DNA of 64,000 bases from a virus (IMGVR_UViG_3300029286_001586:10053-74052); one strand, 5' to 3'; positions 38,274 to 64,000 are shown, counted from the first letter of the stretch. A program made the numbers and translations. The notes: a model not told the origin generated them from the letters alone.

Positions 38274-39036
38274 TGTATTTCCTCATTTTTTCAATTTGGT
38301 AATGACTTACCAAACTTGCAACAAACACCCCTGGTAATAGGCAAAAACTTACGAACAATATCACAAACAAAATATCTGTTATCATTTATTCCTCTGTTCT
38401 TTTGGTTTTATCTTTAGTAAATATCCCCTTCAAATCGGTATAGATATTACTAATAACTTGATTGAGTCTATCTATTTCACTAACAAGTTCATTAGTGCAG
38501 TTCTCGCAGCAAACATAATCAAGAACCTCCCCCTGACATCTCATACACTTTACTTCTTTAATTTCTTTCATAGAAGCGGGTTTCCTTCCTTATCGGCTTT
38601 TTCAATCAATTTAGTTATTTCGGAGAAAGTATCTTCGTCACCAATCCACGGACCGAGAGGATTTCCGTCTTCATCTAATCTACAATCTGGATTAAGTTGA
38701 ATTTCGAATTCTTTATCTTCGGTAGTAACAGCAACAACATTATACCGTCTTTGTTCACACCATTCAATAAACGCTTCAAGGTCGTGAGTAAATGATTTAA
38801 TCTTTCTTCTTAGTCCTTCTTCAAGGTCAGAACAATTAATTCTTATGATACTAAGTTCATATTTTAGGTCGGTCAAATCCAGAGCATGATACCTTCCAAA
38901 CAAACAAGCATGATTAACTTTATAGTCATTCAAATCTGTCAACAACCAATTCGGTATTTCAATTGTTTTAATCGGTGTCTGTGTAGAATCCGTCATTGCG
39001 TTCCAAACTAATTTCATTTTCTTGCCCTCCATATAT

Positions 39037-39066
39037 ATTATACCATTTATCTGCACCAAAGTTTAC
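39037..39066 (-). promoter_or_regulatory. Phage-specific promoter, copy 2
   Basis: gtaaactttggtgcagataaatggtataat. Confidence 0.7.
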
Positions 39067-39515
39067 CTCAATTTTTCATGTTTAAGCATATAGACTGTTG
39101 CTCGTTTAAGTCCTCCTATCTTACTGTTCTTTTTAACAAGCAAATCAATAATAGCGACATTATTGTAACGACTATTTAAGCGGTCTCGGCATGTCCACAC
39201 AATAGTGGGACTTATATCAGGAATAATAATTTGCGTACCAAAATCCATTTGATTATTTGCAAACCAATATCCAGTGGGAACTCCATTGATAGCCACCCTG
39301 CCTCCCGCTCCGAAATCAGGACTGGCATCGGTCTCGGCAGGAACAGCATGATAAGTTGTGACCCTGTACTTACCAATGTTGACTTTGATTATTTTGTCAT
39401 AATTAAATGCAGTAACTTTTACTATCGTTGTTCCTATAATAATTCCTACAATTAATCCCAAAATAAAAGACCCAAACCAAGTACCTAGAAAAAACTGCTT
39501 AATTTCTGTTACCAT
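39063..39515 (-). CDS. Membrane-anchored 3D-domain (peptidoglycan-active) protein
   Basis: N-terminal TM; VTTYH....TDASP, FGT.I.I, CRDR, IIDL. Confidence 0.6.
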   Translation of the reverse strand: MVTEIKQFFLGTWFGSFILGLIVGIIIGTTIVKVTAFNYDKIIKVNIGKYRVTTYHAVPAETDASPDFGAGGRVAINGVPTGYWFANNQMDFGTQIIIPDISPTIVWTCRDRLNSRYNNVAIIDLLVKKNSKIGGLKRATVYMLKHEKLR

Positions 39516-39996
39516 TATTTATGCTCGAAGGTAAAGCAACGGCAACTCCTACAAGAATATATAGTCCATTCACTTCGTTTTATTTTATACCAGTCCTCCA
39601 TTGCGGAATATATACTATCAAATACTTCATACTTATCTGGATATTCGCAACACGGTTTCTGTGGTTGCTTTAATTTTTCGCTGAAATGAAACTTAACTAT
39701 CGGTTCTTCTGTTTTAGATATTGTTTTAACTGCTACTTTCTTTTTCATTGTAATTTGCCCTTTCTAAATTATTTAGCCATGTTAATTCGTTAGGAAATTT
39801 TTTCCTTGTTAGTTGCATTTATTTCCTCTCATCCTATAAATAACACTGGCTTGTTCTTCTAATTCAACAAGATATTTGCTTTGCTGCTTGTTAAATCCAA
39901 TGCTCTCAAGAAAATTTCTCCTTTTAACAACAACTTTTTGATGCCTTCTGTCGCTTTCGATTCTATCAGATTCGTAGCAACTATCATAATGTCCCA

Positions 39997-42690
39997 TTAT
40001 TTTCCTCCTTTTAATTTGCATTTATCACTACACTTAATTTTCCATCCCAAACTTTTTATGAACGGACAAGCAAAGTGGTAAGCATCTCCGCTATAAACGG
40101 TTTTTACACAACTTTCAAGACCAAGTAAAAGATTTCCGTTCCTAGTAGATGTTAATTTGGGGTCAATATTCTGGGTCCACTTAGTCAATAATTCAACACA
40201 GTCTTCTTCAGATACTTCCTGGTCTTTGTAGTACCCCGCCAAAACAAGAGTTGCCCTGTTTCTCGAACCCTTGACTTTTATTCCGTTCTCCAGTAAGTCC
40301 TTGACACAAACAGGAACGTAATCAGGTACGATTTTAAGCGTTGTTCTTTTATATTCTTTGGTCTTGTAATCTCTGAGCATATCATTAGCCCACTTTTCAG
40401 CCACGTCTATTTTAGACGCTACTCCAATTTTCTCCTTTTTCTTGGGCGAAACTGCGAGAGCCAAAATGTTGGTAATGTCTTCTCCTATCATTTTAATAGG
40501 AATAGTTATTTTAAATAGCCCCGATTTCATATTGGGGGTATTTTGAATCCTGAGCATCTTTCTATTACCTGTTGCATTACAAAGGGTCTGTAACTTGAAT
40601 TTGGTTCTTAATTTATTGTGGATATGTTCTATTTTCTTATGAAGGTCTGAAGATGGCTTAAAACCAAACACAGCTTCATCAACTATAATATGGAAACCCT
40701 TTGAATTTCCGCACCACATAGGTTTTCCGTTTCTTCTAACAAATATTACACCAGTAGAAACTTCGCAACAATATACATTGTCATTATAAGGAACAAGTCC
40801 ATATCCCCATCCAGTTCCAAGCGTGTTTTTTATATTATATTGATGTTTTGTTGATTTATTATAGGTTACTAACCACATATTTCCATCTTTTGTGACATTA
40901 GAAGCATATCCTAATCGCAAACATAGTTCATTTATATTATCAGCTAGTTCTTTTTGTATTCCTGGATATAAAACATTTTTGTTTTTGTCTCCATCCCCTA
41001 AATAAAAAGCATCGAAAAGTATTTTGAGCTGTCTTTTGGAAAGATTTAATATATTTCTATCTATTTTTTTACACAAAACATTACAAAGCTGTTTATCATA
41101 AATCATTAAATAATTACAACCATTCGGATGCTTACTATATTTTACTTTACTTCCAAAAATTCTTTTGGCTGAATTCCAAATTTTTTTAAAATTTTTCGTG
41201 TCTTTTTGACATATTGTTATTTCACAACTTCCTGCGTTTTTCCCTCTCTTACTTTTTCTCTTTCTGCTATATCCTTCGGATAACCAATATCCCAAAAATT
41301 CAAGCCAATCATCCATTTTAATTTTTTTGGCTGGTATTTTATATTTAATTTTTCCTCCCCCGCATATTTTATAAGTTTCGGGCAAAACAAAATATTTTTG
41401 TTCTTTCCCTGTATGTTCTATTCCTCTATTAAAAATTAAATTAGACCTATTTATTAGTTCTTTTATTGGTCGAAGTTCAAATTCTTTTTTATTATCTTTT
41501 TGGATTTGATGGTACATATTATGGTCTGGAGTAACTAGAATATCTATAAAACTAGATTTAAGATTATATAAATGTCCTTTGTATGGGAATTTTTGTATTG
41601 TTTGGGGGTATTCGTATTTTGTTGTGTTTTTGTGTTTAACAGCAACTTTATCTGTCGTTTGTAAATCTTTAAAATATTTCCACCCATTTTGAGTTAAAAT
41701 TTCTGTGTCTTTGCTATAACATCCAGAAAATGATAGGTGTATCATATTATCGGGAATATTGAGTCTAAACAGTTCATCTAGTATGTAGATAGCTTCTGCT
41801 TGTGCCTGACTTAAATCATCGACATCATCAACATCGAGGTCAAAGAACAAGGGCATGAGGAAATCTTCGCCATATACTTTTTCAGCGTTCCTGAATTTCT
41901 GGACTGACATATATAACTCAGACCCACTATGTTCCCTAACAAAATGAGGAATTTGATTAGTCTTTAGTCTTAACCATTTACTCCACTTTTTCTCATTTTC
42001 AGAGTTCATGTAGGAGAAACATACTTCTTTATACATATAGTCTTTATTGTCTATTTCGTCCTGGGGCTTAGAAAACAGAGTATAAAACAAATCATCACTA
42101 AGAAGCGGTTTAATCCTGTCAGTGAACGCTTTTAGTCTTTCAAGCAAGTATTCAATATCGTAGTCTTCGGCATAGTCTTCCTTCAATTTGCATATCTTTT
42201 TCTTCTCGGTCGGCTTTGCAAAGTAGTAACCAACTTTGTTCCCAATCGGCACATTCTTATTTTTAGCAAGCAATACTTCATAAACTTGGTCTGATTTTAT
42301 CTTATTAGCCTGATATGCGTTTAGTGAGCGATTTATTTCCCTGTGCTGAATGAATTCATTGAGTTCCATTTTACCACTCATGATAAGTTCTCTGAGAGTG
42401 AGATATCGTTCTCTTATTTTGTCATATTCCTTATTAAGAATGTCCCAAATAGAGTCCCTGATAAAATCTTTACCAAACTTTTCAATCCCCCTGCTTCTAA
42501 AACTTACACCAGACATTTTAATCTTATTATCTTCAGTAACACGAATGTAATTCTTAGGCAAAATATTACAAAAGAATTTATAGTAAGCTAGGTCACAGTC
42601 TATTCCTTTTGGTAAAAAAGCGTTTATCTCTTTAAGCAAAGATTCGCCCTCTAGTTTATACTTTTTTATGTTTTTTTCTGTATTCAGCAT
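39997..42690 (-). CDS. Family B DNA polymerase C-terminal (palm end/thumb) part fused to an AEP primase, intein-containing
   Basis: LPKGID, KNY, SGVSFRSR, YD.EY (PolB); PLFFDLD, FSG|SKGFH, MLRIQNT (AEP motifs); PVCV...RNRA...FACP C-terminal domain. Confidence 0.85.
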   Translation of the reverse strand: MLNTEKNIKKYKLEGESLLKEINAFLPKGIDCDLAYYKFFCNILPKNYIRVTEDNKIKMSGVSFRSRGIEKFGKDFIRDSIWDILNKEYDKIRERYLTLRELIMSGKMELNEFIQHREINRSLNAYQANKIKSDQVYEVLLAKNKNVPIGNKVGYYFAKPTEKKKICKLKEDYAEDYDIEYLLERLKAFTDRIKPLLSDDLFYTLFSKPQDEIDNKDYMYKEVCFSYMNSENEKKWSKWLRLKTNQIPHFVREHSGSELYMSVQKFRNAEKVYGEDFLMPLFFDLDVDDVDDLSQAQAEAIYILDELFRLNIPDNMIHLSFSGCYSKDTEILTQNGWKYFKDLQTTDKVAVKHKNTTKYEYPQTIQKFPYKGHLYNLKSSFIDILVTPDHNMYHQIQKDNKKEFELRPIKELINRSNLIFNRGIEHTGKEQKYFVLPETYKICGGGKIKYKIPAKKIKMDDWLEFLGYWLSEGYSRKRKSKRGKNAGSCEITICQKDTKNFKKIWNSAKRIFGSKVKYSKHPNGCNYLMIYDKQLCNVLCKKIDRNILNLSKRQLKILFDAFYLGDGDKNKNVLYPGIQKELADNINELCLRLGYASNVTKDGNMWLVTYNKSTKHQYNIKNTLGTGWGYGLVPYNDNVYCCEVSTGVIFVRRNGKPMWCGNSKGFHIIVDEAVFGFKPSSDLHKKIEHIHNKLRTKFKLQTLCNATGNRKMLRIQNTPNMKSGLFKITIPIKMIGEDITNILALAVSPKKKEKIGVASKIDVAEKWANDMLRDYKTKEYKRTTLKIVPDYVPVCVKDLLENGIKVKGSRNRATLVLAGYYKDQEVSEEDCVELLTKWTQNIDPKLTSTRNGNLLLGLESCVKTVYSGDAYHFACPFIKSLGWKIKCSDKCKLKGGK
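40705..41721 (-). mobile_element. Intein with LAGLIDADG endonuclease in AEP motif II (339 aa)
   Basis: Starts CYSKDTEILTQNGWK; VTPDH; FLGYWLSEG and FYLGDG; ends VYCCEVSTG...WCGN, followed by Ser+1. Confidence 0.93.
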
Positions 42691-42729
42691 GATATTGCTT
42701 ATACCTTTTAAGTTGTTTTTTATTTGGAA

Positions 42730-44256
42730 CTATTTTTCCTGTGATTGCCATGATTCTTTTGTTATATATACCCCGTCCGTGTCCCGCTCCAGTGTTATAT
42801 ATCCTTTCTTTGTTAGAAAATCGCACATTGTTTGCAGCGTTTCTCGTCCTATCTTTGTGACTCTGCTTGCTTCTTCCATGTCGTTCCATTGAAACACATT
42901 ACTGCCCAACAGTCCATAGAGTGAGTTGATTAATATTTTAGTTGATTGTTCCTCTGCTTTATATCTCTCTAGTCCTGTTTCTTTGGCTTGCGCTTTCATA
43001 CTGAATCTTAGGTCTGTAAGAGTTTTAAGCAGTTTAGGAAACACTTTGAATTTGTCTGATTTGGGACAGACATTATAATTCAACATGACTGATGGATAAA
43101 GCGAATTAACATCTAAATGATAGACATGTTCAAATATTCCTCTCTGTTCGGCTCCGACCATAGCACCTTCAAAATCTATTTTTTCCTGCTTGATAGGGAT
43201 TGCATGTCCTTGTCTGTAATATTCCCTGACAAACATTCCTGTCATTTTCGTGGAAGAACTAGCAATACACACTTTCTCATAGTTCATAGGAAGCATTTGT
43301 GTCTGGTAGAAGTCTTTTTGTGTCAGTAATTTTGATAGATGGTCAACTGCCAAACAATCGTCCATACAATGCTTTATAATCAACTGCTTATCTGTTTTAA
43401 GAAATTCTGCTATCTTAGTTTTATCAATATTCATATCCTCGAACTTCTTACCAAATCGCTCTGATACATCATCGAGTTTATATGTTTCAAGTTCTCTGTA
43501 AATAGCATCCCAGGCACGAACAGAATAATATAGGTCAACACAATGCCGACCCCAAATCTTAGGGACCATTATTTCCACGCTTTGATTATCACCCATACGA
43601 ATATGGGTCTGGAACATATACATGTCGGAATTATTGCGTCCGATATTCGGTCTGATATCATGAACTGCTGCTCTATTCATGAGTAATTGAAAGTCGAAAC
43701 TGAATCCATTATAGCTTTCAATAACATCAGGATTCAATCTCTTAATAACTTCAAAAAAATGCTCGATGATAAAATTCTCATCACCGATTATGTAATCGCT
43801 TTTATCTCCGCAAGTATAACAGATAATTAATATCTCTGAATCAGTAAGCGATAGACCCGTTGACTCAATATTGAATTGTAAGCGTTTCAGGTCTTCATAT
43901 TCCATTCCCTTGAATAGAGTCTTTCCTGTTTGAATCATGTACTGAGTATTCATATCCGAAATTGTAAAGTGTTGGGGTTGTGCCAAACCATTGTTCTGTC
44001 TCAATGTTTTCATCAGGGGAAAAAACAATCGGGGTTCAATATAAGCCAAGATGTTATATCCGTCTCCCTGAAGTTCTTCATATTCTTTTTGTCCAATACG
44101 ACTTAGCTGATTTTTAGAAGAAAGATAAAGAAATGGCTTAAACGCTTCTTTAAAAGTTTTACCATTCCTAAAGATAGTAGTTGCAGTTCCATTATTTACT
44201 TCAATAGATACTATATCCGTGGTCTCATTTTTTCCGTATATTAAAATATCGTTCAG
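42730..44256 (-). CDS. polB: Family B DNA polymerase N-terminal part (exonuclease plus motifs A, B, C); probable CTG start
   Basis: YNGFSFD, DVNSLYPS, KILINSLYG, DTDG. The frame is open back to CTG 44256, which has GGAG 7 nt upstream. Confidence 0.88.
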   Translation of the reverse strand: MNDILIYGKNETTDIVSIEVNNGTATTIFRNGKTFKEAFKPFLYLSSKNQLSRIGQKEYEELQGDGYNILAYIEPRLFFPLMKTLRQNNGLAQPQHFTISDMNTQYMIQTGKTLFKGMEYEDLKRLQFNIESTGLSLTDSEILIICYTCGDKSDYIIGDENFIIEHFFEVIKRLNPDVIESYNGFSFDFQLLMNRAAVHDIRPNIGRNNSDMYMFQTHIRMGDNQSVEIMVPKIWGRHCVDLYYSVRAWDAIYRELETYKLDDVSERFGKKFEDMNIDKTKIAEFLKTDKQLIIKHCMDDCLAVDHLSKLLTQKDFYQTQMLPMNYEKVCIASSSTKMTGMFVREYYRQGHAIPIKQEKIDFEGAMVGAEQRGIFEHVYHLDVNSLYPSVMLNYNVCPKSDKFKVFPKLLKTLTDLRFSMKAQAKETGLERYKAEEQSTKILINSLYGLLGSNVFQWNDMEEASRVTKIGRETLQTMCDFLTKKGYITLERDTDGVYITKESWQSQEK

Positions 44257-44546
44257 AATTTTACTCCATAACTTATTAAAGATTTTGTGTAATTATTTCG
44301 TGGATTGGAATCAACTCGATGGAAACACTCATGATAAAAATTTAGATTATCAGAACCCAAATATATAGAATAAAGAACTTTATCTGGATTAAAACCTTGT
44401 AATGATGCTCTGCTTATATAAGACATTACATCGCATTTTATCTTTATATCAGAACCAACTTCACCACGAACTCCAGATATGAACTGACCATTATCTTCCC
44501 CAATATAAAGGGCTATTAAGAATATAATCAATAGTATGTGCTTCAT
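44253..44546 (-). CDS. Hypothetical secreted/membrane protein
   Basis: Hydrophobic N-terminus; ATG 5 nt after a promoter -10 element. Confidence 0.5.
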   Translation of the reverse strand: MKHILLIIFLIALYIGEDNGQFISGVRGEVGSDIKIKCDVMSYISRASLQGFNPDKVLYSIYLGSDNLNFYHECFHRVDSNPRNNYTKSLISYGVKF

Positions 44547-44551
44547 ATATC

Positions 44552-44581
44552 ATTATACCACATAATAGCCCCAAAGTTGAC
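44552..44581 (-). promoter_or_regulatory. Phage-specific promoter, copy 3
   Basis: gtcaactttggggctattatgtggtataat. Confidence 0.7.
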
Positions 44582-45351
44582 TACAAATTAGTCGATGGTT
44601 TTAATATCTGGAGATTTTTACCGACTTTGCACCAACCACCACAGTCCTGACATTGCGCTCTCTTATATTTCGTGGTGGCATTAATTGAAAATCCTCTTGA
44701 TTGCATATTACCAGACCCGCACTTGGGACATACTAATTTATTAGTGTACATTCCTAAATTTGGGTGAGTATTCATCCAGGGAAGAAGTCTGAGATATATC
44801 TTTTCAAGAAGAATAACATCATTTGCGTTATACTGCTTCATCTTTTTCCACGCTTCGAGTTTTCCAGCCATACAATCCAGCCATAACTTAAATCCGCCAG
44901 TTTCGACTTTAACTCCCAAATCTAAATACTTGCCGAGGTCATTTAAGCTGTTGCTATTAAAAGCAAAGTTTTTTTTTGCTACTATCTTAGTATCAACTGT
45001 TTTGAATGGGGCTGGAGGTTTCATTTTATGAAATGAAAATCTTGAATTACTTTTTTTAATATCAAAATCTGCCCCGTTATGAGCAACTACAATATCTGCT
45101 TCATCAAAGAGCTTCCAAATGTCCTCTACCAACGCTTTATCGCTTTCTTTGTCTTTTTTATAAAGCGGATAATCACAGAGTCCTTTGGAAAACACTTTCT
45201 CTCCCAACCACTTCGCACTGAAACTCAAAATATGCCATTCGTCTTTATTCTCAATAATATGGGTTTCCCAGGGATGCGACCACCAATAGCCGAGATTAGG
45301 ACTGGTCTCAATATCGAATATCAATATTTTGGACTCATTATCTTTCTTCAT
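44581..45351 (-). CDS. DEDD/RNase H-like 3'-5' exonuclease with C-terminal zinc ribbon
   Basis: FDIETSP, AHNGADFD, YNANDV, CPKCGS...CQDCG. Confidence 0.85.
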   Translation of the reverse strand: MKKDNESKILIFDIETSPNLGYWWSHPWETHIIENKDEWHILSFSAKWLGEKVFSKGLCDYPLYKKDKESDKALVEDIWKLFDEADIVVAHNGADFDIKKSNSRFSFHKMKPPAPFKTVDTKIVAKKNFAFNSNSLNDLGKYLDLGVKVETGGFKLWLDCMAGKLEAWKKMKQYNANDVILLEKIYLRLLPWMNTHPNLGMYTNKLVCPKCGSGNMQSRGFSINATTKYKRAQCQDCGGWCKVGKNLQILKPSTNL

Positions 45352-45909
45352 TTATTCCTCCTCTTTATTTAATCTAACTGAAACAATAGTGTCTTCATAA
45401 ATCTCGACACCAGGAATTTTTGTATTCGGGTCCTGAAGTATTGCTCCTTGTATTTTCTTTGGGTCAATGACTTCCGAATAAAAAATATGAGGCACTTTTT
45501 CTTCATCAACAATGTTATATTTTATTTTACTTGACCTAGATATTCCTTCTATATATTCAGGCACGAATTCTATGCCGTTCTTTTTAGCTTCCGCTTTTTC
45601 CATATTATCAAATTGAACAATGGCATTTTTAATGACAGTCTCGGCTATTTCTCCCTTTTCAATCAAAGGTTTAAATATTTTCTGCGCTGCTTTTATTGCT
45701 ACTTTTGAGGGTTGAATAATGCTATCAAGAGCATCTTCTGCATCTTTTGCATACTGTTTAGCTTTCTTTACTAAATCCGCTCCTTCAAATAACTGTTTTA
45801 CCGTAGTTATTTTATATTCTTTTATGGGGAACTGTATTTCTTGCGCTCTTTTTATTAGAGCAATTGCTTGCGGATTTACTACTGCGACTTCTTCTTTCTT
45901 TTTAGCCAT
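45352..45909 (-). CDS. Gp157/Gam-like coiled-coil protein
   Basis: Coiled coil followed by IVDEEKVP...IPGVEIYE. Confidence 0.5.
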   Translation of the reverse strand: MAKKKEEVAVVNPQAIALIKRAQEIQFPIKEYKITTVKQLFEGADLVKKAKQYAKDAEDALDSIIQPSKVAIKAAQKIFKPLIEKGEIAETVIKNAIVQFDNMEKAEAKKNGIEFVPEYIEGISRSSKIKYNIVDEEKVPHIFYSEVIDPKKIQGAILQDPNTKIPGVEIYEDTIVSVRLNKEEE

Positions 45910-51803: not shown

Positions 51804-52148
51804 TCATATTTTTGTTATTTCAACATTTTCAGAATAGTAGCCATTTGAAGCTCCGTACCATGATATTGTGACTGCTCCTTTTATCGTTGCAAATTTATAA
51901 AATGTCCATGTGTTCGTTCCATCATCTTCATCAAATTTGTTGGATGTTTCTTCCGCCATAAGCAAAGGTGACCCGATTAAATCTGCCAAATCACCAACTA
52001 TTTCTTTTATATAAACACTCTCACAACACTCCTGGTCATGATACATTTTCCATGATGGTCCATTGACTTCTTGAAAAACAATCTCGTCATTTTCTTTATT
52101 TACTGTTATGTTTTCTAATATTTTTTCTGCCAATGCTTCAATTTTCAT
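51804..52148 (-). CDS. Conserved phage protein
   Basis: YHDQECCESV...TWTFYK...WYGASNGYYSE. Confidence 0.7.
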   Translation of the reverse strand: MKIEALAEKILENITVNKENDEIVFQEVNGPSWKMYHDQECCESVYIKEIVGDLADLIGSPLLMAEETSNKFDEDDGTNTWTFYKFATIKGAVTISWYGASNGYYSENVEITKI

Positions 52149-52157
52149 AATTTCCTC

Positions 52158-53378
52158 CTATCCTTTTATTACTGCCATTGGAATTAATTCGTGCAAAATA
52201 TCGACCAAATCTTCTTGTTCTTTCATAACAACATCAATATCTTTATATGCACTTGCAGATTCGTCCAAATCTTTTTTATGTCTCATTCCATGTATTATTC
52301 CTTGTTCATTCATTTTATTTATTTCGTCTTCAAGATTAAGTTCTGCAATAGCTTTTGTTCTGCCCATCCTTCTTCCTGCACCATGAGAACAACTCATAAA
52401 GCTATCTGGGTTTCCTTTCCCACTAACAATATAACTTTTTGTTCCTTGTGAACCAGGAATTATTCCTATCGTATTCTCTCTCGCAAGCGTTGCTCCTTTT
52501 CTATGAATCATTACGTTCTTTCCAAAATGATTTTCTAAAGAAGCATAATTATGGGCTATATTTATCATATTTGTTGAATATGCCACAGGTTTGTACTTAT
52601 CTGGATTATCATCATTAAAACAATCTATAATTCTATCCATCATCAATCTTCTGTTAGCAAACGCAAAATCCACACAATACTGCATTTCTCGTAAATATGA
52701 TTGCCCTTCTTCGCTATCTAATGGTAAAAATGCAAGTTCCCATTTCTTAGGTACTGATGTATGCCATTTTGTGTTTAAATCAACAGCAAGTTTATTATAA
52801 TGATTTGCAACTTTGAATCCCAGATTTCTGCTTCCGCTATGTATCATTATCCAGACATATCCGTCTTGGTCTTTCTGGATTTCTATGAAGTGATTGCCCC
52901 CACCAAGCGTACCTATCTGTTTTAATGCGGATTCGTATTCTTGTTTTACAATAGGAAAATATTTTTCGTCCCGTTCATCGTGATACATACTAGGCATCAA
53001 ACTTTCACCCTGTTTTTTCGAGTGGTGACTAAAACCAACAGGAACAACGCTTCTAATGCCCCCGTGATAATCTTTTGAACCCCCGAATATCTTCTTAATG
53101 GTTTCTTTGTCTAACATTTCTGCTTCGAGCGATGTCTTGACCGCACACATGCCACAGCCTATATCAACTCCAACAGCATTAGGAATAACAACACCTTCGG
53201 TAGCTATAACGCCCCCTATTGGCATCCCATATCCTTGATGAGTATCGGGCATAAGACATACTTGCTTAAACACAAAAGGAAGTCTTGCAAGATTTTTCGC
53301 TTGCTCCCACGCTCCTGCTTCTGGTTCATTACACCAAGACTTTATAACAACACCGTTTTCCACTTGTTCATATTTCAT
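52158..53378 (-). CDS. rtcB: RtcB RNA ligase
   Basis: MPDTHQGYGMPIG, VGVDIGCG, GTLGGGNHFIE, HSGSR, HRKGA, SCSHGAGR, AYKDI. Confidence 0.96.
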   Translation of the reverse strand: MKYEQVENGVVIKSWCNEPEAGAWEQAKNLARLPFVFKQVCLMPDTHQGYGMPIGGVIATEGVVIPNAVGVDIGCGMCAVKTSLEAEMLDKETIKKIFGGSKDYHGGIRSVVPVGFSHHSKKQGESLMPSMYHDERDEKYFPIVKQEYESALKQIGTLGGGNHFIEIQKDQDGYVWIMIHSGSRNLGFKVANHYNKLAVDLNTKWHTSVPKKWELAFLPLDSEEGQSYLREMQYCVDFAFANRRLMMDRIIDCFNDDNPDKYKPVAYSTNMINIAHNYASLENHFGKNVMIHRKGATLARENTIGIIPGSQGTKSYIVSGKGNPDSFMSCSHGAGRRMGRTKAIAELNLEDEINKMNEQGIIHGMRHKKDLDESASAYKDIDVVMKEQEDLVDILHELIPMAVIKG

Positions 53379-53626
53379 TACCACACATCTCCATTTTCGT
53401 TTATTTTTTTATCCTCGTAATTCCCTATCTTGCGTCTCTCTAATTCCATTATAGCACAGTTTCCTGCGCCGACAATATCATTGTATGTTTGATATGATTC
53501 TCCTTTTACTCCAAGATATTGCTGAAATAAGCGGGTGATTTTATAGTTGAGTTCTCCACAATTTACAGCCAAAGCTTCGTTATCAAGTTCTAATCGTCTA
53601 TTATTATCGTCTTTTATATATGGCAT
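53378..53626 (-). CDS. Conserved phage protein
   Basis: MPYI...GELNY.IT...E..RR....YED.KI.ENGDV. Confidence 0.65.
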   Translation of the reverse strand: MPYIKDDNNRRLELDNEALAVNCGELNYKITRLFQQYLGVKGESYQTYNDIVGAGNCAIMELERRKIGNYEDKKINENGDVW

Positions 53627-63389: not shown

Positions 63390-64000
63390 CGTGTCCGATA
63401 TCGGCTCGATATTTATTCGTATTTTGTGAGTAGAAAAAGGAAACGCCCATTACACAGCTAAACACTTATCAAGAGTATAATCATTAATACAGATCATTAC
63501 AGTACAATACAGGGGAGATAATAGGGGATAACAGGCATTGCCTGAAGTGGTATCTATCTCATACTTTCATGCCACAAATTGAATATCATGTTCAATTATA
63601 TTGTGATTTATTTCACAATAAACGCTGTATTGAGTACAATAAATGCTATTCACGCTCTCAGTAATGCTATCAGTGAAAGTGTATCAGTTTGTATTGTCGG
63701 ACTGTTGACAGTCCTCTCTTGTCGCTCTTGATATCGCTCTGCTATGTTAGCACTCAATCAAAATAAAAACGCTTGTAATGTCAATTTTGGGGCTCTGACA
63801 GCACGCTATATATAGCGGTATGTTTATCCGCTCTCAGACCGTGCAAAGTAAACAAATGTTTACCAATACAACGGCACAAAATGCCCATGCTCATTCTTTG
63901 ACATAACATGTATTATGCGACATTAATTTTGACCTATGCTATTAGAGGTCGATTTTAGGCGATTATAGGCACTTTAGGCATATAGAGCCAAAGGACACTC

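What the first reader, a model, noticed from the sequence alone, without database searches (positions are those of the whole stretch)
42637..42760. DNA polymerase interrupted just after the catalytic DTDG by an in-frame amber-containing segment with a mini-ORF
The two PolB ORFs are in the same frame, separated by a single TAG (42732-42730): DTDGVYITKESWQSQEK*FQIKNNLKGISNIMLNTEKNIKKYKLEGESLLKEINAFLPKGID. This linker seems roughly 25-35 codons longer than I recall for related PolBs. It is bounded by GAATC direct repeats 111 nt apart (42756 and 42645, in frame). Another frame holds a 31-aa basic ORF (42751..42656, MAITGKIVPNKKQLKRYKQYHAEYRKKHKKV) resembling the N-terminus of a homing endonuclease. 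A GAGGG SD precedes an in-frame TTG at 42639. Possible explanations: a naturally split two-subunit polymerase left by a decayed endonuclease insertion; T4 gene 60-type ribosomal bypassing (AAA before the TAG, matching in-frame AAA at 42657); amber readthrough; or removal at the RNA level (RtcB is encoded). A regulated stop here would also set the ratio of polymerase to primase products.
Basis: partly seen in the sequence, partly recalled or inferred. Interest (0 to 1): 0.8.

Follow-up and report, generated by a model that had tools for sequence, protein, structure and literature searches.

The report
Phage DNA polymerase split by stop codon
An uncultured lake-water phage carries a real in-frame stop codon inside its DNA polymerase-primase gene, so the enzyme is most likely made as two proteins that reassemble; split polymerases of this kind are already known.

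Summary
TAG 42732-42730 (minus strand) lies 13 codons after DTDG, in the same frame as the downstream ORF. Contigs from four lake-water runs carry it without a single difference. Compared with the closest fused relative (P0122, 1050 aa, about 57% identical), the window has exactly 31 extra codons (42658-42750), and these contain the TAG. The phage uses the standard code and has no suppressor tRNA.

The gene belongs to an uncultured family in which a family B polymerase (PolB) carries a C-terminal archaeo-eukaryotic primase. Some members are fused (P0122, P0126, P0129). Others have C-pieces that start 4-27 residues before the LPxG motif, at the window's break point (P0125, P0127, P0128, P0143). 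The nearest relative is split elsewhere, inside the thumb. Both window halves are equally conserved (56% and 61% against P0122).

A well-spaced GAGGG precedes in-frame TTG 42639; such in-frame pairs occur only about 0.05 times per 30 codons in this genome. An ATG at 42690 is an alternative restart.

Best reading (about 0.7): a two-subunit polymerase, broken where the Methanothermobacter PolB is broken. Gene-60-type bypass, RNA excision and an endonuclease scar have no support. Low-level readthrough cannot be excluded.

No DNA of the split relatives could be fetched. This scan has already logged split polymerases on other genomes.

The parts
42733..44256 (-). N-piece of the polymerase (508 codons): N-terminal domain, exonuclease, palm and fingers with motifs A (DVNSLYPS), B (KILINSLYG) and C (DTDG). 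Probable start is CTG 44256.
   Evidence: Pfam DNA_pol_B, DNA_pol_B_exo1. The frame is open from 44292 with no ATG/GTG/TTG before the conserved N-terminal domain. CTG aligns with the Met of P0122 and P0002, with GGAG 7 nt upstream.
42730..42732 (-). In-frame TAG that ends the N-piece.
   Evidence: Identical in contigs of four runs.
42658..42750 (-). 31-codon A-rich insert relative to the closest relatives. It contains the TAG and the ATG at 42690.
   Evidence: Single 31-residue BLASTP gap against P0122. Low-confidence stretch in the AlphaFold model of the read-through PolB part (10-residue block means 63, 52 and 62 at residues 501-530, against 88.8 overall). Unique in the genome.
42647..42651 (-). 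GAGGG Shine-Dalgarno-like motif, 7 nt before TTG 42639.
   Evidence: The spacing matches the genome's usual 5-9 nt. In-frame internal SD-plus-start pairs are rare: 24 in 15,660 codons.
42637..42639 (-). In-frame TTG, candidate restart codon of the C-piece (8 residues before LPKG).
42688..42690 (-). In-frame ATG, alternative restart 13 codons after the TAG. It has no SD at usable spacing.
   Evidence: It gives 26 residues before LPKG, similar to P0128 (27) and P0143 (22).
39997..42690 (-). C-piece ORF: PolB KxY motif and thumb, then an archaeo-eukaryotic primase with a Cys-rich C-terminal domain.
   Evidence: Pfam DNA_pol_B profile positions 247-423. Alignment with P0122, P0125, P0127, P0128, P0143.
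40705..41721 (-). 339-aa intein with a LAGLIDADG region, inserted in primase motif FSG|SKGFH.
   Evidence: Absent from all nine aligned relatives. Boundaries C...GN|S confirmed. Weak LAGLIDADG_3, Intein_splicing and Hint_2 hits.

Best explanation
The polymerase-primase gene of this phage is expressed as two polypeptides.

1. Translation of the N-piece (exonuclease, fingers, and palm with motifs A, B and C) starts at CTG 44256 and ends at TAG 42730.
2. Ribosomes start again in the same frame, either at TTG 42639, served by GAGGG 7 nt upstream, or at ATG 42690, by reinitiation after termination.
3. This makes a C-piece that carries the KxY motif, the thumb and an archaeo-eukaryotic primase. The primase becomes active after its intein splices out.
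4. The two pieces reassemble without a covalent link to form the replicase. This is what happens with the split PolB of Methanothermobacter and with gp43A/gp43B of Aeromonas phages.

The break lies in a 31-codon insert within an already variable surface linker. The insert is still in frame and otherwise free of stops. The split is therefore probably young: a nonsense change in a once-continuous linker, not an old intergenic spacer.

**Shown:** the stop is real; the code is standard; both halves are intact and conserved; relatives exist both fused and split; an SD-led in-frame start is present.

**Inferred:** which start codon is used; that the pieces assemble; how the insert arose.
For: **The stop is real and the code is standard.**
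- Four runs carry the TAG without a difference.
- TAG ends RtcB at full profile length and ends 15 of 57 long ORFs. The only tRNA in the 74-kb genome is tRNA-Met.

**Both halves are under similar constraint.**
- Identity to P0122 is 56% for the N-piece, 61% for the thumb and 54-59% for the primase.
- There are 897 stop-free codons after the TAG in a 35% GC genome.

**Relatives are both fused and split.**
- Fused: P0122, P0126, P0129.
- C-pieces starting with Met 4-27 residues before LPxG: P0125, P0127 (on a 30.6-kb contig), P0128, P0143.
- N-piece P0028 ends 38 residues after DTDG. Its longest recorded contig has the same length (3384 bp, JGI) as that of C-piece P0143.
- P0269 ends 7 residues after DTDG.
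- The nearest relative, P0002 plus P0388, whose recorded contigs are both 36,940 bp long, is split at another place, inside the thumb.

**A restart signal is present.**
- The phage uses SD sites at most genes.
- GAGGG sits 7 nt before in-frame TTG. Such in-frame pairs occur about 0.046 times per 30 codons.

**The break falls in a tolerant spot.** The insert is the lowest-confidence part of an otherwise confident model.

**Published precedent.**
- The Mth PolB split lies about 83 residues C-terminal of Pfu residue 467, which from my own recollection of the Pfu numbering is a few residues after DTD.
- Split Pfu made by termination-reinitiation is fully active (PMC3061061).
- 43A and 43B co-purify and are active (PMC2988022).
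Against: - No protein or RNA data exist.
- The DNA of the split relatives could not be fetched, so it is unknown whether their two ORFs are in frame, overlapping or spaced. Same-contig placement of P0028/P0143 and of P0002/P0388 rests only on equal contig length and source.
- ATG 42690 has no SD, and TTG is a weak start codon.
- For an old non-coding spacer, being in frame and stop-free is unlikely: 6% for 90 nt or 29% for 39 nt, each times one third for the frame. This fits a recent nonsense mutation whose fitness effect is untested.
- The N-piece also lacks a canonical start codon. That could instead mark early decay of the gene.
Confidence: 0.7

Rival explanations
1. Stop-codon readthrough. 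A fraction of ribosomes decode the TAG with a near-cognate or host suppressor tRNA. This yields a full-length polymerase-primase that is the functional enzyme, or an additional form of it. The stop would then tune its level.
For: The stop is in frame, and the 30 codons after it stay open. A read-through linker of 52 residues is no longer than the 50-residue linker of the fused relative P0126. The read-through PolB part folds confidently around the insert.
Against: There is no suppressor tRNA in the phage genome. TAG is an ordinary stop for RtcB and 14 other long ORFs. No stimulatory RNA structure follows the stop (fold z = -1.2) and there is no Rfam match. From general knowledge of E. coli termination, the TAG-T context is not leaky. 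The same family shows real two-ORF forms.
Confidence: 0.12
2. Recent inactivating mutation. The polymerase gene is in early decay, with a lost ATG start and a nonsense codon. The phage depends on another polymerase, or the sampled population is defective.
For: There are two soft lesions in one gene: CTG in place of the relatives' ATG and the TAG. The stop sits in an otherwise open in-frame stretch, as expected just after a nonsense mutation.
Against: The same allele is the assembled consensus in four samples, at contig depth 11-15x in X1 and X2. There is no frameshift and no second stop in 1,405 codons. Conservation is equal on both sides of the stop. The catalytic motifs A, B, C and KxY are intact. 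No other replicative polymerase was seen in the window, although the first 10 kb of the genome was not annotated.
Confidence: 0.1
3. Programmed bypass or removal of the segment. Options are T4 gene-60-type hopping from AAA 42735 to a downstream AAA, paired frameshifts on the A-runs, or excision at the RNA level with RtcB ligation.
For: AAA precedes the TAG, and an in-frame AAA at 42657 would restore a linker that aligns well with K-IDG of P0002. A 4-bp GGAA/UUCC hairpin holds the AAA-TAG. A-AAA-AAG runs are present. RtcB is encoded in the window.
Against: 17 AAA triplets (5 in frame) lie inside the would-be 78-nt gap, so precise landing is not expected. The fold is no better than shuffled sequence (z = -1.2; 25 of 200 shuffles fold as well). 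There is no intron or other Rfam family in 39500-45500. There is no GAG at gene-60 spacing before AAA 42657. From general knowledge, phage RtcB usually serves tRNA repair.
Confidence: 0.03
4. Scar of a mobile element. A homing-endonuclease gene or an intein once sat here and was lost imprecisely, leaving the 93-nt insert with a stop and a start. Something similar has been proposed for the Methanobacteriales split (PMC4104785).
For: The site is next to motif C, and inteins do insert in archaeal PolB genes (PMC4104785); that motif C itself is an intein hot spot is from my own memory. The P0028/P0143 relative also carries extra residues at its split. An active intein is present elsewhere in the same gene.
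Against: The insert and the mini-ORF match no Pfam family. There are no intein blocks. There is no second copy in the genome. The GAATC repeats lie 12 nt inside conserved sequence (K-LEG aligns with K-IDG), so they do not bound the insert. This rival concerns origin only and is compatible with the best explanation.
Confidence: 0.05

Closest known systems
Split PolB (PolB1/PolB2) of Methanothermobacter thermautotrophicus (Kelman et al. 1999, as described in PMC3061061 and PMC4104785)
   Same: The break is in the palm just C-terminal to motif C. The large piece carries the exonuclease and motifs A-C, and the small piece carries the thumb. The two polypeptides form an active enzyme.
   Different: It is archaeal, and the two genes lie about 85 kb apart. 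Here the pieces are adjacent and in frame, separated by one TAG. The C-piece is also fused to a primase that contains an intein. The exact Mth break residue was taken from the paper's description, not aligned here.
gp43A/gp43B of T4-related Aeromonas phages 44RR2.8t, 25, 31 (Petrov et al. 2006/2010, via PMC2988022 and PMC3061061)
   Same: A phage PolB made from two adjacent cistrons separated by a short untranslated spacer with its own SD. The pieces co-purify and are active.
   Different: That split lies in the fingers, before motif B. In 44RR2.8t the motif KILINSLYG is in 43B, and the spacer is 49 nt, out of frame and contains a hairpin. The window's break lies after motif C and is in frame.
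Engineered split Pfu polymerase made by translational termination-reinitiation (PMC3061061)
   Same: A stop inside a PolB gene, followed by restart at a nearby internal start, gives two fragments that behave like the wild-type enzyme.
   Different: It is a laboratory artefact in the fingers domain and was created by a -1 frameshift.
T4 gene 60 translational bypass
   Same: A stop codon follows directly after a codon that recurs downstream, inside an essential replication gene.
   Different: There is no protected gap, no significant take-off hairpin, many competing landing codons, and a different gap length.

Membership tests
Naturally split family B DNA polymerase (two-subunit PolB) | The two ORFs together cover a complete PolB with intact catalytic motifs. 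| tested here: met
   Exonuclease domain and motifs A, B and C in the N-piece; KxY and thumb in the C-piece. Collinear with the 801-aa Salinibacter phage PolB and with P0122.
Naturally split family B DNA polymerase (two-subunit PolB) | The downstream piece has its own translation start signals. | tested here: met
   GAGGG 7 nt before in-frame TTG 42639, and an ATG at 42690. In-frame SD-plus-start pairs occur 0.046 times per 30 codons in this genome. Whether either start is used has not been shown.
Naturally split family B DNA polymerase (two-subunit PolB) | The split is kept in relatives or recurs in the family. | tested here: met
   At protein level only. C-pieces P0125, P0127, P0128 and P0143 start 4-27 residues before LPxG. 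N-pieces P0028 and P0269 end 38 and 7 residues after DTDG. P0002 plus P0388 is split in the thumb. The junction DNA was not seen.
Naturally split family B DNA polymerase (two-subunit PolB) | The two polypeptides are made and assemble into an active enzyme. | not testable with these tools
T4 gene 60-type ribosomal bypass | Matched take-off and landing codons, with a stop directly after the take-off codon. | tested here: met
   AAA-TAG at 42735-42730. In-frame AAA at 42657 and four others. This is trivial in an A-rich stretch.
T4 gene 60-type ribosomal bypass | The gap is free of competing landing codons, and a stable take-off stem-loop is present. | tested here: not met
   17 AAA triplets lie in the 78-nt gap. 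There is only a 4-bp hairpin, and the region folds no better than shuffles (z = -1.2).
Stop-codon reassignment or phage-encoded amber suppression | TAG is read as sense genome-wide, or a suppressor tRNA is encoded. | tested here: not met
   Reading TAG as Gln merges or extends neighbouring ORFs. RtcB ends at TAG at full profile length. Only tRNA-Met is found.
Intron, intein or homing-endonuclease insertion at the break | A recognisable ribozyme, intein blocks or an endonuclease domain in the inserted segment. | tested here: not met
   No Rfam match at E<=1. No Pfam match for the insert or the mini-ORF at E<=10. The insert is only 93 nt.

The most novel reading that the evidence does not exclude
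The in-frame TAG is a regulated recoding site. A set fraction of ribosomes read through it, or hop over part of the A-rich insert. The phage would then make both a free exonuclease-palm piece and a covalent full-length polymerase-primase in a fixed ratio, on top of any restart product.
Probability: 0.1. Interest if true: 0.75.

Novelty: new variant of a known kind. Interest (0 to 1): 0.4.

Why it matters
Split replicative polymerases are known from Methanobacteriales and from T4-related phages. This case differs in three ways:

- It places a phage split at the archaeal break point, just after motif C.
- The thumb-bearing subunit is also the primase, so polymerase and primase would be physically tied through a non-covalent joint.
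- The same small clade holds a fused form, a form split after motif C and a form split inside the thumb. That gives a natural series for asking how easily PolB tolerates fragmentation.

There is also a practical point. Gene callers truncate both pieces here: the called N-piece starts 81 codons too late, because the real start is CTG. Surveys that use PolB as a marker would therefore miscount such genomes.

Tried and rejected
The junction DNA of the split relatives and a docking test were therefore not obtained.
- Viral-contig scans found only the fused P0126 locus and stand-alone primases. The genome-contig scan found nothing relevant.
- Megablast of 39000-45000 against GenBank phages gave no match.
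- No cultured phage has a thumb-primase protein.

**RNA evidence**
- No RNA holder was listed among the sequencing runs.

**Ideas rejected**
- Code change TAG=Gln.
- Insert as a repeated mobile element.
- Promoter or terminator inside the insert.
- Rfam families.
- Mini-ORF as an endonuclease fragment.
- GAATC as a target-site duplication.
- Anabaena phage A-1(L) as a split precedent: its PolB is one ORF.
- The many 190-243-aa thumb-only hits as split subunits: they come from contigs of about 1-3 kb, and two of the six looked up share a cluster with 759-777-aa proteins, so they look like fragments.
- P0234 and P0007 overlap in sequence and belong to a different, longer fusion (P0155), so they are not a split.
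Full report
**What is in the sequence**

On the minus strand one reading frame runs from 44292 to 39997. It is broken only by TAG at 42732-42730.

- Upstream of the stop are the PolB exonuclease domain and the polymerase motifs A (DVNSLYPS), B (KILINSLYG) and C (DTDG). The stop comes 13 codons after DTDG.
- Downstream, the same frame continues with LPKGID, the KNY motif and the thumb. It then runs without a stop into an archaeo-eukaryotic primase (Pfam hits; alignments).
- A 339-residue intein with a LAGLIDADG region sits in the primase motif FSG|SKGFH, at 40705-41721. It is absent from all nine aligned relatives.

**Is the stop real, and is the code standard?**

The window is part of a 74,052-bp contig with 35% GC. 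Its sequence is held by lake-water metagenome runs.

Logan contigs from four runs, each from a different sample, cross the site with no difference. Two are long contigs (X1, X2) that may be the source of the assembly. Two are short contigs from other samples: X4 covers 42594-42854 and X5 covers 42621-42902. The N-piece protein is also on record from JGI, ENA and Logan assemblies. The stop is therefore not an assembly error. Contigs do not show minority alleles, so rare variants cannot be ruled out.

The genetic code is standard:
- TAG ends 15 of 57 long ORFs.
- RtcB stops at a TAG exactly at the end of its Pfam profile.
- Reading TAG as Gln merges or extends neighbouring ORFs.
- The whole genome encodes one tRNA, tRNA-Met.

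**The insert**

The closest relatives are metagenomic proteins P0122 (1050 aa, fused PolB-primase, about 57% identical) and P0002 (59% identical to the N-piece).

BLASTP of the junction against P0122 gives one gap of exactly 31 residues, at 42658-42750. This gap holds the TAG and the ATG at 42690.

Among 31 homologues the linker between DTDG and LPxG has a median of 25 residues. The window has 52. Only the distant fused relative P0126 has a similar length (50), and it aligns weakly through the linker.

In an AlphaFold model of the read-through PolB part (mean pLDDT 88.8), the 10-residue blocks covering the insert score 52-63, which places them among the least confident stretches of the model. 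The insert lies between the strand after DTDG and the helix that leads to LPxG.

The insert has no other copy in the genome, no Pfam match, no Rfam match and no promoter- or terminator-like site.

The GAATC pair does not bound it. The right-hand GAATC lies inside K-LEG-ES, which aligns with K-IDG of P0002. The pentamer also occurs 117 times in the genome.

**The family is found both fused and split**

A full HMMER search with the thumb and the follow-up alignments define an uncultured family of PolB with a C-terminal primase.

| Form | Members |
|---|---|
| Fused | P0122, P0126 (on a 101-kb viral contig, L011), P0129 |
| C-piece only (541-613 aa, Met start, thumb then primase) | P0125, P0127, P0128, P0143; first residue 16, 4, 27 and 22 residues before LPxG |
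| N-piece only | P0028, P0269 |

- The window's ATG 42690 would lie 26 residues before LPKG, and TTG 42639 would lie 8 residues before it.
- P0028 is an N-piece that ends 38 residues after DTDG. The longest contig recorded for it and for P0143 has the same length and source (3384 bp, JGI), and the two ORFs nearly fill a contig of that size.
- P0269 ends 7 residues after DTDG.
- The window's nearest relative is split at a different place. P0002 (650 aa) stops inside the thumb, and P0388 (394 aa, rest of the thumb plus primase) has a recorded contig of the same length, 36,940 bp.

So within one small clade there is a fused form, a form broken after motif C and a form broken in the thumb. Each split form's nearest known relative is a fused one: the window is closest to P0122, and P0128/P0143 are closest to P0126. 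Breaks have therefore arisen more than once.

I never saw the junction DNA of these relatives, and same-contig placement rests on equal contig length and source.

**How the C-piece could be made**

Most genes of this phage have an AGGAG-type motif 5-9 nt before the start codon.

- GAGGG lies 7 nt before the in-frame TTG 42639.
- In 15,660 internal codons of 72 genes, only 24 in-frame start codons have such a motif, or 0.046 per 30 codons.
- Building the motif needs the minority codons GAG (22% of Glu) and TTG (18% of Leu).
- ATG 42690 has no motif at usable spacing. It lies 39 nt after the stop, so reinitiation by terminating ribosomes is possible. That step is inference from general knowledge.

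Both halves are equally similar to P0122: 56% for the N-piece, 61% for the thumb and 54-59% for the primase. The 897 codons after the stop contain no further stop. The downstream part is therefore still translated, or was until very recently.

**Age of the split**

If the stretch between the TAG and the restart were an old spacer, it would have to be in frame (one chance in three). It would also have to be stop-free by chance: 29% for 39 nt, 6% for 90 nt.

A once-continuous long linker that recently acquired a nonsense codon explains both without special pleading.

**Rivals**

- **Readthrough** is not excluded, but nothing promotes it. There is no suppressor tRNA, TAG is used normally elsewhere, and no structure follows the stop (fold z = -1.2).
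- **Gene-60-type bypass** is unlikely. The would-be 78-nt gap holds 17 AAA triplets, and the only hairpin has 4 base pairs.
- **RNA excision** has no signal.
- **Early gene decay** is possible, since the gene also lacks an ATG start. The equal conservation of both halves, the intact motifs and the presence of the allele in four samples argue against it.
- **An endonuclease or intein scar** remains an untestable idea about origin.

**Comparison with known cases**

PMC3061061 lists the natural PolB splits:
- five T4-like phages, in the fingers;
- Methanothermobacter, in the palm, about 83 residues C-terminal of Pfu residue 467. By my own recollection of the Pfu numbering, that is a few residues after DTD.

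The same paper shows that a Pfu polymerase split by termination-reinitiation is fully active. PMC2988022 reports that 43A and 43B co-purify and are active. PMC4104785 proposes intein loss as the origin of the Methanobacteriales split.

I checked 44RR2.8t directly. Its 43A and 43B are separated by 49 nt, out of frame, with a hairpin and an SD, and the break lies before motif B.

The window therefore works like these systems. It shares its break point with the archaeal case and its adjacent gene layout with the phage cases. It differs in three ways: a single in-frame stop, a thumb subunit that is also the primase, and an intein in that primase.

Earlier notes of this scan record several other split viral polymerases on other genomes, so the kind is not rare.

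**Verdict**

The most likely reading is a young, functional two-piece polymerase-primase (confidence about 0.7). This is a new variant of a known kind and of moderate interest.

Noticed in passing
window 44254-44270 (minus strand): The polymerase has no ATG/GTG/TTG start. CTG 44256 aligns exactly with the Met of the relatives (MNDILIYGK against MNPVLYGK in P0122 and MNNTLLNGK in P0002). It has GGAG 7 nt upstream and overlaps the TGA of the upstream ORF as CTGA. The called protein (P0001, 427 aa) starts 81 codons too late, at an ATG with no SD.
   Followed up: partly
window 40705-41721 (minus strand): A 339-aa intein (Cys1 ... Gly-Asn | Ser, no penultimate His) with a LAGLIDADG region splits the primase motif FSG|SKGFH. 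None of nine relatives has it.
   Followed up: partly
window ~43860 and 44581-45351 (minus strand): The ExoI motif reads FNIES, with Asn in place of the first Asp. P0122 and P0002 share this (WNIES, WNIEA), whereas P0126 and P0129 keep Asp. A stand-alone RNase_H_2/RNase_T-like exonuclease gene lies two genes upstream.
   Followed up: partly
proteins P0002 and P0388 (recorded contigs both 36,940 bp; no locus fetched): The nearest relative's polymerase-primase is split inside the thumb. The N-piece ends ...FYIAQENQ and the C-piece starts MKYKLKEDY (GTG in the JGI copy). This leaves room for only about two codons between them, so it may also be a simple in-frame stop.
   Followed up: partly
window 44253-44560 (minus strand): The 97-aa ORF upstream of the polymerase has a hydrophobic N-terminus, no SD and no Pfam match. 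Its ATG lies 5 nt after a TGGTATAAT extended -10-like sequence, so it may be translated from a leaderless transcript, or it may not be a gene.
   Followed up: no
window 51804-53384 (minus strand): RtcB (408 aa) and a DUF7448 protein are in the same frame, separated by one TAG and three codons. RtcB ends at the full length of its profile, so this is an ordinary stop. It serves as a useful control for the code.
   Followed up: yes
window 63887-64000 and genome 378-491 (outside the window): The last 114 nt of the contig repeat a stretch that begins 377 nt from its start. This is not a clean circular overlap.
   Followed up: no
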